In this document: piece after piece, positions 54,481-56,534 of the stretch | Layout of the letters: every line of letters begins with the position of its first letter | Numbering within the stretch: the stretch's first letter is position 1 | Assembly: GCA_009914755.4 (NCBI GenBank) | Contig: CP068257.2 | Coordinates: forward strand, 27,872,001-27,936,000 | Origin: the human T2T-CHM13v2.0 reference genome, Homo sapiens | Direction: 5' to 3' | DNA: 64,000 nt | The notes under the pieces: model-generated | What the model saw: the letters and a program-made list of their open reading frames with translations, nothing else | Databases searched by the model: none | What the model was told of the DNA's origin: nothing | Translations under genes and position numbers: made by a program

Positions 54481-54767
54481 TTTTTTTGAGATGGAGTCTC
54501 GCTCTGTTGCCCAGGCTGGAGTACAGTGGCACCATCTCAGCTCACTGCAACCTCCACCTCCCGGGTTCAAATGATTCTCCTGCCTCAGCCTCCTGAGTAG
54601 CTGGGACTATAGGCACATGGCACCACAGCCAGCTAATTTTTGTATTTTTAGTAGAGACGGGGTTTCACCATGTTGGCCAGGATAGTCTCGATCTCCTGAC
54701 CTCGTGATCTGCCTGCCTTGGTCTGCCAAAGTGCTGGGATTACAGGCGTGAGCCATCGCGCCTGGCC
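54481..54767 (-). mobile_element. Full-length Alu SINE, antisense, with a 15-bp TSD of ATGATACAGTTTTCT
   Basis: tttttttgagatggagtctcgctctgttgcccaggctggagtacagtggcacc...ctgggattacaggcgtgagccatcgcgcctggcc. atgatacagttttc occurs at 54109-54122 and at 54768-54782. Confidence 0.95.
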
Positions 54768-55491
54768 ATGATACAGTTTTCTATAGAGAGGGAAAAAATA
54801 GAGAGGGAGTTTTCTATGGAAAGGAAATCACTAATTACCCCTTAAATTCTATTCATGTCTCCTATAGACGTACAAGAATGCATTGCTATATGGGTCTATA
54901 TACCTAGGCAATAATATTCCTAGGAGAGCAATAGCATGGAACTAAGGAATTTGAAGATTTTACATAGTTGGCATTGATTGAATGTAACATTGCCTGAGCA
55001 CATCAGACTTATAATTTAATCTTTATCCTTTTTCTTTTGACTGATATAGCCTTGCTTTTTCATCTATCATTATGGAACACTAGCCCTCTCACTTTTGCTG
55101 TCCATATGCAGAATCAACTTTCTTCTATTCTAATTTAAGGCAGATACATTATATAGGCATATATGGGTATTGAAGGAAACAATGTGAAGAGGATTAATTA
55201 GAAATATATTCTCTTTAAGATATTTGGGGTGAAATAATAAAATCTATATATTCTTAAACATGTGTTGGTAAAACTTGAAAGACACACTGGTTAAAAGTAT
55301 ATTAAGTTAAATATCTGGGAATCTGTAATTCAGACTATGTCTCTGATCTATATGGATGTTTACATTATTAGTTCACTAATGGCATTGTAGGCCTTCTCAG
55401 AATTTGGAATAAAGAACTCTGAGCCCATTGCCTTCTATACTGGTAACTGACATTCTGTATCTCAGTCTTGGTTCATGTCTACCCGTCTTAC

Positions 55492-55717
55492 CAATAGGTG
55501 TTCCCACTCCGTAACCTTTGGAGTCAATGAGGCCCCCGATCTGAGTGAGGTTGCAGTTTCTCTGCGTCACATACTCAATGCTGGTGGACTCCATCAGCAG
55601 CGCGTAGTCTGTGGTGAGCACTCTCTGGATCCCCTCATCACTGTTTCTTACCAGGGCGGTCTGCTGCCTGCTGCTCATGAAAGCCCACATCTTCTCATAG
55701 GTGGAGATTTTTGATTT
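55492..55717 (-). CDS. GRIK1: Internal coding exon of ionotropic glutamate receptor, kainate type subunit 1 (GluK1/GluR5). It encodes part of the S2 ligand-binding lobe, ...[76 protein letters not shown]. It is 226 nt, starts on a codon boundary and ends with one base of the next codon.
   Basis: Minus-strand translation from ORF 55397..55738 matches the conserved kainate-receptor S2 segment and reads with GRIK1-specific residues ([25 protein letters not shown]). The acceptor is tttctttccctccag|AAATCA (AG at 55718-55719 on the minus strand). The donor is ATTG|gtaaga (GT at 55490-55491). Amino acids in the ORF beyond the donor (KTGRHEPRL...) do not match any receptor. Confidence 0.88.
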
Positions 55718-56241
55718 CTGGAGGGAAAGAAAACACACTCACCAGCAGAAGAGGGCTGGAAAAATACGACCTAAAGGTATTCAAAGTCCCAATGGTTCAA
55801 ATAATGATAGGGAGGATACTTTCTCCACAGGTGGGGGAGTCAAGATTGATGATCTCAAGGCTTCACTTTTGTAGCTGAGAAGAGCCCAGTTCACTCACTA
55901 TTGGACAGCATTTGCACGGAGGCAGCTATTACATGGAGACCTTGATCTATAAGCCATTGTGGCCCACTGGGCTAAGGGGTGACTAGCTCACTCCAGGACT
56001 CTGTTCATTTCATGCATTTTCCTTTCAATCACTCAACTCCAGCAGGTATTGTTTTGCTGTTTCCAGGTGTATAAGTTTCAATCCTTGATCTAGCATTCTT
56101 CTGCTGGGGAGAGCCCTGGAGTAAACCACTGACTTCCTCTGCTTTATTTGTGAGAGAACTGTCATTCACTCTTCTCTTTTCTAGAAAACCCAGAATGTAA
56201 ATGCTCTTTTCAAATTAAAATTTAGATAAGAAAAATCTTCA

Positions 56242-56534
56242 GCCAGGCCTGGTGGCTCACACCTGTAATCCCAGCACTTTGGGAGGCCGAGGTGGGCAGA
56301 TCACATAAAGGTTAGGAGTTCGAGACCAGCTTGACCAACATGGTGAAACCCTGTCTCTACTGAAAAAATACAATTAGCCAGGTGTCGTGGCATGTGCCTG
56401 TAATCCCAGCTACTCAGGAGGCTGAGGCAGGAGAATCGCTTGAACCCGGGAGGTGGAGGTTGCAGTGAGCCAAGATCGTGCCATTGCACTTCAGCTTGGG
56501 CAAAAACAGCGAGACTCTGTCTCAAAAAAAAAAA
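56242..56534 (+). mobile_element. Full-length Alu SINE in sense orientation with a TSD of about 14 bp, AAGAAAAATCTTCA
   Basis: gccaggcctggtggctcacacctgtaatcccagcactttgggaggccgaggtgggcagatcaca...cttgggcaaaaacagcgagactctgtctcaaaaaaaaaaa. The flanking sequences are gatAAGAAAAATCTTCA| and |gAAGAAAAATCTTCAtact. Confidence 0.95.

What the first reader, a model, noticed from the sequence alone, without database searches (positions are those of the whole stretch)
54481..56534. Inverted Alu pair tightly flanking the 226-nt GRIK1 exon, a geometry that favours circRNA formation and intronic dsRNA
The exon at 55492-55717 has a sense-orientation Alu 525 nt into its upstream intron (56242-56534). It also has an antisense Alu 725 nt into its downstream intron (54481-54767). 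In the pre-mRNA these two full-length Alus are reverse-complementary and could base-pair across the exon. Complementary flanking Alus are the established driver of exon back-splicing and are substrates for ADAR A-to-I editing. Two further antisense Alus (58014-58314, 59306-59601) lie further upstream and could compete for pairing with 56242-56534. This is a sequence-level prediction of a possible single-exon circular RNA, or an exon-skipping-prone exon, in a neuronal receptor gene.
Basis: inference. Interest (0 to 1): 0.5.

Follow-up and report, generated by a model that had tools for sequence, protein, structure and literature searches.

The report
Inverted Alu repeats around GRIK1 exon
Two oppositely oriented Alu repeats do flank a 226-base coding exon of the human kainate-receptor gene GRIK1, but this is a common arrangement, two more Alus in the same intron compete equally well for the pairing, and I found no evidence that the exon forms the predicted one-exon circular RNA.

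Summary
Window 55492-55717 (minus strand) is a 226-nt GRIK1 exon with AG/GT splice sites, and its translation is 100% identical to the human GluK1 ligand-binding core. Full-length Alus lie at 54481-54767 and 56242-56534 in opposite orientation, and two more lie at 58017-58314 and 59306-59601. All four have target-site duplications. One label needs correcting. The gene is on the minus strand, so in the pre-mRNA the upstream Alu (56242) is antisense and the other three are sense.

Predicted duplex energies of the antisense Alu with its three partners are nearly equal: -467 kcal/mol across the exon, against -490 and -455 within the upstream intron. The minimum-energy fold of the 5.2-kb pre-mRNA segment pairs it with the young AluY in the same intron. 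The across-exon alternative is only 4 kcal/mol worse, and its partner is transcribed later.

GRIK1 circRNAs are already catalogued. One of them, hsa_circ_0115770, has a primer inside this exon, but its other primer lies in the S1 exon about 675 nt upstream in the mRNA, so it is a multi-exon circle. No single-exon circle turned up. Skipping the exon would shift the reading frame. This is ordinary intronic Alu architecture and of low interest.

The parts
55492..55717 (-). GRIK1 coding exon, 226 nt. It encodes part of lobe S2 of the GluK1 ligand-binding domain ([13 protein letters not shown]...GYGVGTPI). It starts in phase 0 and ends in phase 1.
   Evidence: AG/GT splice sites and translation. 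75/75 residues identical to PDB 2zns, human GluK1.
56242..56534 (+). Full-length AluS-type element with an A-tail, lying in the intron upstream of the exon. It is ANTISENSE in the GRIK1 pre-mRNA. The 14-bp target-site duplication AAGAAAAATCTTCA is at 56228-56241 and 56536-56549.
   Evidence: 87-90% identical to the AluSx consensus over positions 2-282. TSD read.
54481..54767 (-). Full-length AluS-type element in the intron downstream of the exon. It is SENSE in the pre-mRNA and is the across-exon partner of 56242-56534.
   Evidence: 89-90% identical to AluSx over positions 1-282. 86.9% complementary to 56242-56534, duplex -467 kcal/mol. Inverted-repeat arms I2, I6 and I7.
54120..54487 (-). (TTTC)n microsatellite, about 92 copies, reading (GAAA)n in the pre-mRNA. 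It is the expanded A-tail of the Alu at 54481-54767. That Alu's 14-bp target-site duplication ATGATACAGTTTTC (54110-54123 and 54768-54781) brackets the Alu and the array together.
   Evidence: TRF. Sequence.
58017..58314 (-). Young AluY in the same upstream intron, sense in the pre-mRNA. It is the strongest within-intron competitor for the antisense Alu. TSD CACCACATTTAT at 58003-58014 and 58316-58327.
   Evidence: 98.6% identical to AluY and 23 CpGs retained against 26 in the consensus. Duplex -490 kcal/mol with a 1482-nt gap. Pairs 259 bp with 56241-56534 in the MFE fold. TSD.
59306..59601 (-). Older AluS-type element in the same upstream intron, sense in the pre-mRNA, and a second within-intron competitor. 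Degenerate TSD GTGTAGTGAGCTTTC / GTATAGTGAGTTTTC.
   Evidence: Duplex -455 kcal/mol with a 2771-nt gap.
48890..49140 (-). Next GRIK1 exon downstream (251 nt, end of S2 plus M4: GSPYRDKIT...KNNDIEQ). It sets the downstream intron at 6351 nt (49141-55491). The upstream exon lies outside the window, so the upstream intron is longer than 8.3 kb.
43663..43975 (+). Alu (antisense in the pre-mRNA) in the intron after the M4 exon. It can pair with 54481-54767 (enclosing the M4 exon) or with 58017 or 59306 (enclosing both exons). This adds further alternatives to the pairing network.
   Evidence: I1, I2, I6, I7. Duplex energies of -450 to -494 kcal/mol.

Best explanation
This is ordinary primate intronic architecture. 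Four independent Alu retrotransposon insertions sit in the two long introns around a constitutive, frame-critical GRIK1 exon. One Alu (56242-56534) is antisense in the pre-mRNA and three are sense (54481, 58017, 59306). The antisense Alu can form an imperfect RNA duplex of about 260 bp with any one of them.

The two best alternatives are pairing with the AluY in the same intron (no exon enclosed) and pairing with the downstream Alu (exon enclosed). They are predicted to be nearly equal in energy and have equal loop sizes. The same-intron partners are transcribed first, so most transcripts probably form the within-intron hairpin and the exon is spliced linearly.

The likely molecular consequence is low-level A-to-I editing of these intronic Alus. 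This step is inferred, not shown. At most there would also be rare back-splicing as a by-product.

The documented circRNA that contains this exon, hsa_circ_0115770, is a multi-exon circle. It probably uses this exon's donor (55492) together with an acceptor at or upstream of the S1 exon. If the downstream Alu helps any circle form, it is more likely that one, by pairing with an antisense repeat far upstream and outside the window.

Shown here: exon identity, Alu identities and orientations, target-site duplications, pairing energies, and primer positions.
Inferred: which duplex forms in vivo, editing, the co-transcriptional order effect, and the exact junction of hsa_circ_0115770.
For: - Exon and gene identity.
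- Alu census, subfamilies and TSDs.
- Near-equal duplex energies and distances: -467 kcal/mol at 1473 nt across the exon, -490 at 1482 nt and -455 at 2771 nt within the intron.
- MFE of the 5221-nt pre-mRNA segment is -1687.8 kcal/mol with 259 bp between A56241 and S58017. Restricting the antisense Alu to pair only with downstream bases gives 258 bp with S54481 at -1683.8.
- No other inverted repeat of note flanks the exon.
- The hsa_circ_0115770 forward primer GACCGCCCTGGTAAGAAACA matches 55642-55661 on the minus strand, 170 nt from the donor. Its reverse primer is not in the window and encodes SNILGF, at about residue 470 of GluK1. This exon covers residues 695-769 of the same chain, 7lvt.
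- The GRIK1 circRNAs listed in the two human-brain tables I could search are chr21:31015145-31066382 and chr21:31045302-31066382. By my recollection of the hg19 gene coordinates these lie in the 5' half of the gene.
- Pig and mouse also have GRIK1 circRNAs although they lack Alus.
- General mechanism and competition between alternative intronic pairings: PMC7463782 and PMC8516420. The latter argues that most circRNAs are low-level by-products of young transposon insertions.
Against: - The 4 kcal/mol gap between the two folds is well inside the error of the energy model, so thermodynamics does not exclude across-exon pairing in a sizeable share of transcripts.
- The pair has the classic geometry of circRNA-producing exons: under 1 kb from each splice site and long flanking introns.
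- The searchable circRNA tables were truncated when stored, and circBase, circAtlas and REDIportal could not be queried. Absence of a record is therefore weak evidence.
- The back-splice junction of hsa_circ_0115770 was inferred from primer positions, not read from its coordinates.
Confidence: 0.72

Rival explanations
1. The antisense Alu (56242-56534) and the sense Alu (54481-54767) pair across the exon, bring donor 55492 close to acceptor 55717, and drive formation of a single-exon 226-nt circGRIK1 at a biologically meaningful level in neurons.
For: - Inverted full-length Alus lie 524 and 724 nt from the splice sites, with a predicted 258-bp duplex of -467 kcal/mol.
- The flanking introns are long, over 8.3 kb and 6.35 kb.
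- The fold enclosing the exon is only 4 kcal/mol above the MFE.
- GRIK1 is a circRNA-producing gene in brain.
- This exon's donor probably already takes part in back-splicing.
Against: - Two same-intron competitors have equal or better energy and are transcribed earlier.
- No such circle appears in any searchable text or table.
- The known circle containing this exon uses a distant acceptor.
- From my own knowledge of Zhang et al. 2014, which I did not check here, 226 nt is shorter than typical single-exon circles (median about 350 nt).
- Flanking inverted Alus are common and only a minority of such exons give detectable circles.
Confidence: 0.15
2. The downstream sense Alu (54481-54767) mainly serves other circles. 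It could pair with an antisense repeat upstream of the S1 exon to give the multi-exon hsa_circ_0115770. It could also pair with the antisense Alu at 43663-43975 to enclose the 251-nt M4 exon.
For: - Primer geometry places a back-splice between this exon, or a later one, and the S1 exon or an earlier one.
- The 170 nt from the forward primer to donor 55492 fits a normal qPCR amplicon. Including the 251-nt M4 exon would not.
- S54481 x A43663 gives a duplex of -452 kcal/mol enclosing the M4 exon.
Against: - The upstream partner lies outside the window and was not seen.
- The distances are large: 10.5 kb to A43663 and tens of kb to the S1 exon.
- circRNAs also form without repeats, through RNA-binding proteins.
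- The circBase coordinates of hsa_circ_0115770 were not available.
Confidence: 0.3
3. The inverted Alus loop out the exon and make it prone to skipping, or the antisense Alu is itself exonised, giving alternative GRIK1 mRNA isoforms.
For: - In transcript orientation the antisense Alu starts with U11 followed by GAGACAG|AG, which resembles a 3' splice site. It ends with ACAG|GTGTGAG, which resembles a 5' splice site.
- It is known that inverted repeats enclosing an exon can promote skipping.
Against: - Skipping 226 nt shifts the frame and gives a stop after 22 codons of the M4 exon, well upstream of the last exon junction. The product would be a substrate for nonsense-mediated decay and would lack S2 and M4.
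- The exon has a good polypyrimidine tract and a GTAAGA donor.
- As far as I know, no GRIK1 isoform lacking this exon has been described. I did not check this here.
- No expression data were available.
Confidence: 0.05

Closest known systems
Complementary-sequence (inverted Alu) mediated exon circularisation, as described for many human circRNAs (Jeck 2013; Zhang 2014; Liang & Wilusz 2014; summarised in PMC7463782 and PMC8516420)
   Same: Canonical splice sites, long flanking introns, and inverted full-length Alus within 1 kb of each splice site that can form a duplex of about 260 bp enclosing the exon.
   Different: No back-splice junction has been observed for this exon alone. Within-intron pairs of equal strength compete with the across-exon pair, and that situation is reported to reduce circularisation.
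hsa_circ_0115770, a catalogued GRIK1 circRNA assayed by qRT-PCR in fetal hippocampus (PMC7735064)
   Same: It contains this exon (forward primer at 55642-55661) and probably uses its donor at 55492.
   Different: It is a multi-exon circle of at least about 900 nt reaching back to the S1 exon. Its acceptor is not 55717, so the 56242 Alu cannot be its upstream pairing arm.
Hyper-edited intronic inverted-Alu dsRNA (ADAR1 substrates)
   Same: Oppositely oriented Alus less than 3 kb apart in one transcript, with long imperfect duplexes.
   Different: Editing was not measured here. This is promiscuous Alu editing and is unrelated to the site-specific Q/R editing of GRIK1, which lies in a different exon (M2) outside the window.
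Main GRIK1 circRNAs of adult human brain, chr21:31015145-31066382 and chr21:31045302-31066382 (PMC10507039, PMC8355340)
   Same: Same host gene and same tissue.
   Different: They come from a different part of the gene. By my recollection of hg19 coordinates this is the 5' amino-terminal-domain region, more than 80 kb from this exon. They do not involve the Alus discussed here.

Membership tests
Alu SINE insertion | About 280-300 bp dimeric element similar to an Alu consensus over its full length | tested here: met
   All four elements align over consensus positions 1 or 2 to 282 at 87-98.6% identity.
Alu SINE insertion | 3' A-rich tail and flanking target-site duplication | tested here: met
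   TSDs are AAGAAAAATCTTCA (56242 Alu), ATGATACAGTTTTC (54481 Alu, bracketing its (GAAA)n-expanded tail), CACCACATTTAT (58017 AluY), and a 13/15-matching TSD for 59306.
Inverted-Alu-driven circRNA exon | Reverse-complementary repeats in the two flanking introns, close to canonical splice sites | tested here: met
   86.9% complementary over 283 nt, lying 524 and 724 nt from the AG and GT sites.
Inverted-Alu-driven circRNA exon | Across-exon pairing favoured over within-intron pairing | tested here: not met
   The within-intron AluY partner is as close and slightly more stable (-490 vs -467 kcal/mol). The MFE fold chooses it, and the across-exon fold is 4 kcal/mol worse. The gap is within model error, so strictly the two are about equal and the across-exon pair is not favoured.
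Inverted-Alu-driven circRNA exon | Observed RNase R-resistant back-splice junction joining this exon's donor to its own acceptor | not testable with these tools
   No RNA-seq, circBase or circAtlas access. Literature and supplementary-table searches found none. Several of the tables were truncated when stored.
ADAR-edited intronic inverted-Alu dsRNA | Oppositely oriented Alus within a few kb in the same transcript that can form a long duplex | tested here: met
   Three possible partners lie 1.5-2.8 kb away. 258-259 bp are paired in the whole-segment folds.
ADAR-edited intronic inverted-Alu dsRNA | Clusters of A-to-G mismatches between RNA and genome | not testable with these tools
   No RNA-seq or REDIportal access.
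Alternatively skipped (cassette) exon | Skipping keeps the reading frame, or a skipped isoform is known | tested here: not met
   226 nt is not a multiple of 3. Skipping gives a stop after 22 codons of the next exon. The existence of a skipped isoform could not be tested.

The most novel reading that the evidence does not exclude
A primate-specific single-exon 226-nt circGRIK1 is made in neurons. Its yield would be set by competition between the old across-exon Alu pair and the recently inserted AluY at 58017-58314. If that AluY were polymorphic or lineage-specific, it would be a natural genetic switch for back-splicing in a kainate-receptor gene.
Probability: 0.06. Interest if true: 0.4.

Novelty: already known. 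Interest (0 to 1): 0.14.

Why it matters
If the single-exon circle existed at appreciable levels, it would divert GRIK1 pre-mRNA away from functional GluK1 mRNA. GRIK1 lies on chromosome 21 and is implicated in Down-syndrome cognitive deficits (cited in PMC7735064). The locus would also be a tidy natural example of competition among Alu pairs.

As it stands, the locus illustrates a well-established rule (PMC7463782, PMC8516420). Inverted Alus make circularisation possible, but they do not predict it, because within-intron partners compete. GRIK1 circRNAs, including one containing this exon, are already catalogued. The practical value is limited to a short list of junction sequences and deletions that would settle the question quickly.

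Tried and rejected
- Rfam scan of the whole window at gathering thresholds: no hits, so no known structured RNA is present.
- Search for non-Alu inverted repeats flanking the exon between the two Alus: only 14-24-nt matches at 75-86% complementarity, with nothing stronger spanning the exon.
- Literature searches for circGRIK1, GRIK1 with circRNA or circular RNA, and for hsa_circ_0115769 to 0115776. Only PMC7735064 is relevant to human. The review PMC9340306 mentions GRIK1 only as a drug target.
- Supplementary tables. Dong 2023 and Rahimi 2021 list only the chr21:31.015-31.066 Mb GRIK1 circles. isoCirc, the alternative back-splicing atlas and the DLPFC circQTL study have no GRIK1 in the stored text. 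Rybak-Wolf 2015, which from memory is the source of these circBase identifiers, is not held.
- My first constrained fold used the wrong direction symbol and simply reproduced the MFE. It was repeated correctly.
- Translation of a 226-nt circle: the in-frame read crosses the junction and stops after 7 further codons (...GTPIEIKNLHL*), and there is no endless ORF. A coding role was therefore rejected.
- I considered searching the large protein collections for junction-spanning peptides. I did not run it because the chance of success was low and a negative result would say nothing.
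Full report
**1. What is in the sequence**

The window is human. On the minus strand, 55717 to 55492 is a 226-nt exon. It is preceded by a pyrimidine-rich tract and an acceptor AG (TTTTCTTTCCCTCCAG|AAATC) and followed by the donor TTG|GTAAGA. Its translation, [16 protein letters not shown]...GYGVGTPI, is identical over all 75 residues to the human GluK1 ligand-binding core (PDB 2zns, E 5e-45). 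It scores about 13-19 bits lower against GluK2 chains and about 25 bits lower against GluK3, so the gene is GRIK1.

The next exon downstream is at 49140-48890. It is 251 nt and encodes the end of S2 plus M4. The last coding exon begins at 31227. The exon upstream (M3) is not in the window. The downstream intron is therefore 6351 nt and the upstream intron is longer than 8.3 kb.

**2. The Alus**

Four of them lie around the exon:

| Window coordinates | Strand in window | Orientation in pre-mRNA | Type and identity | Location |
|---|---|---|---|---|
| 54481-54767 | - | sense | AluS-like, ~89% | downstream intron |
| 56242-56534 | + | antisense | AluS-like, 87-90% | upstream intron |
| 58017-58314 | - | sense | AluY, 98.6%, 23 CpGs vs 26 in the consensus | upstream intron |
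| 59306-59601 | - | sense | AluS-like, ~87% | upstream intron |

Each element has a target-site duplication, so each is an independent retrotransposition.

For the 54481 Alu, the duplication ATGATACAGTTTTC lies at 54110-54123 and 54768-54781. The 368-bp (TTTC)n array at 54120-54487 therefore sits inside the insertion and is that Alu's expanded A-tail.

The one correction concerns orientation. GRIK1 is on the minus strand, so in the pre-mRNA the upstream Alu (56242) is the antisense one and the other three are sense.

**3. Is it more than chance?**

The complementarity is far beyond chance: 86.9% over 283 nt, with a duplex energy of -467 kcal/mol against -138 +/- 8 for shuffled partners. It is, however, simply what two Alus in opposite orientation give.

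The geometry is not rare. At Alu densities of 0.19-0.33 per kb, about 1.5-4% of exons would have inverted Alus within 1 kb on both sides. That amounts to thousands of human exons.

**4. Which pairing would form?**

The single antisense Alu has three possible sense partners nearby:

| Partner | Encloses the exon? | Duplex energy (kcal/mol) | Gap (nt) |
|---|---|---|---|
| 54481 | yes | -467 | 1473 |
| 58017 (AluY) | no, same intron | -490 | 1482 |
| 59306 | no, same intron | -455 | 2771 |

I folded the whole 5221-nt pre-mRNA segment (window 59650 to 54430).
- The minimum-energy structure (-1687.8 kcal/mol) pairs the antisense Alu with the AluY in the same intron over 259 bp.
- Allowing the antisense Alu to pair only with downstream bases gives the across-exon duplex of 258 bp at -1683.8 kcal/mol.

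Four kcal/mol in about 1700 is within model error, so the two states are effectively equal in energy.

The deciding consideration is kinetic, and it is inferred rather than shown. Both same-intron partners are already transcribed when the antisense Alu emerges from the polymerase. The across-exon partner appears about 1.5 kb later.

Alternative intronic pairings are reported to compete and so shape which circles a gene makes. Stable hairpins between repeats do not necessarily promote circularisation (PMC7463782). Back-splicing is generally inefficient and is often a by-product of young transposon insertions (PMC8516420).

No other meaningful inverted repeat flanks the exon. A further antisense Alu at 43663-43975 adds more alternatives that would enclose the M4 exon or both exons.

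**5. What is known about GRIK1 circRNAs**

A study of Down-syndrome fetal hippocampus lists three GRIK1 circRNAs, hsa_circ_0115770, 0115774 and 0115775, and assayed them by qRT-PCR (PMC7735064).

Its supplementary primer table gives these primers for hsa_circ_0115770:
- Forward primer GACCGCCCTGGTAAGAAACA. It matches window 55642-55661 on the minus strand, inside this exon and 170 nt from its donor.
- Reverse primer TGAAACCCAGGATGTTTGACA. It is not in the window. Its complement encodes SNILGF, which lies in the S1 segment at about residue 470 of GluK1. This exon covers residues 695-769 of the same chain.

The primers are divergent. The circle therefore runs from the S1 exon, or an earlier one, to this exon, or a later one, and is at least about 900 nt long. 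A normal qPCR amplicon fits a back-splice from this exon's donor (55492). This step is inference.

So the exon is already part of a catalogued circRNA, but a multi-exon one whose acceptor is not 55717.

Two human-brain data sets list other GRIK1 circles, at chr21:31015145-31066382 and chr21:31045302-31066382 (PMC10507039 and PMC8355340). By my recollection of hg19 coordinates these lie in the 5' half of the gene and far from this exon.

Pig and mouse also make GRIK1 circRNAs without Alus.

I found no record of a single-exon 226-nt circle.

**6. Other parts of the interpretation**

Exon skipping would shift the frame and give a stop after 22 codons of the M4 exon. The result would be a non-functional product, probably removed by nonsense-mediated decay. 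The splice sites look strong.

A 226-nt circle has no endless reading frame.

A-to-I editing of these Alus is very likely on general grounds, because any inverted Alu pair a few kb apart in a brain-expressed transcript tends to be edited. It was not testable here. It is also not specific to the across-exon pair, and ADAR1 activity is reported to reduce circRNA levels rather than accompany them (PMC7463782).

**7. Verdict**

- there are competitors of equal strength in the same intron;
- the known circle containing this exon uses a distant acceptor;
- no record of the predicted junction was found.

Best explanation (confidence about 0.7): these are neutral intronic Alus forming alternative dsRNA hairpins, with linear splicing of a constitutive exon and at most trace single-exon back-splicing.

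Novelty: already known in kind. Interest: low.

Noticed in passing
window 54120-54487: A 368-bp (TTTC)n array of about 92 copies, with TTCC and CTCT variants, reading (GAAA)n in the GRIK1 pre-mRNA. It lies inside the target-site duplication of the 54481 Alu, so it is that Alu's expanded A-tail. Such long purine/pyrimidine tetranucleotide arrays are usually highly polymorphic and can form triplex DNA. Any effect on transcription or splicing is unknown.
   Followed up: partly
window 58017-58314: A very young AluY: 4 differences from the consensus and 23 CpGs retained against 26 in the consensus. Two of the differences (GCGTGG to GTGTAG, and ACTCGGG to ACTTGGG) include changes that I recall as Ya-lineage diagnostic. 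It could be lineage-specific or polymorphic. I could not check population or ape data.
   Followed up: partly
window 43663-43975 with 54481-54767, 58017-58314 and 59306-59601: An Alu that is antisense in the pre-mRNA, with an A-tail of about 28 nt, lies in the intron after the M4 exon. It can pair with the sense Alus upstream (-450 to -494 kcal/mol). This predicts alternative circles of the 251-nt M4 exon alone or of the 226-nt and 251-nt exons together.
   Followed up: partly
window 56242-56540, minus strand: In transcript orientation the antisense Alu begins with U11 followed by GAGACAG|AG and ends with ACAG|GTGTGAG. These are the motifs typically used when antisense Alus are exonised. No expression evidence was available.
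   Followed up: no
window 31072-31227, minus strand: The last coding exon of GRIK1 (CLSFNAIMEELGISLKNQKK...RKETVA, then a stop) is in the window. The window therefore covers the 3' end of the gene, and roughly its first 30 kb are 3' UTR or downstream intergenic sequence, carrying five more Alus.
   Followed up: no
window 14904-15258: The Alu hits here cluster into a 355-bp span, longer than a single element. This may be an Alu with an internal insertion or an adjacent fragment.
   Followed up: no
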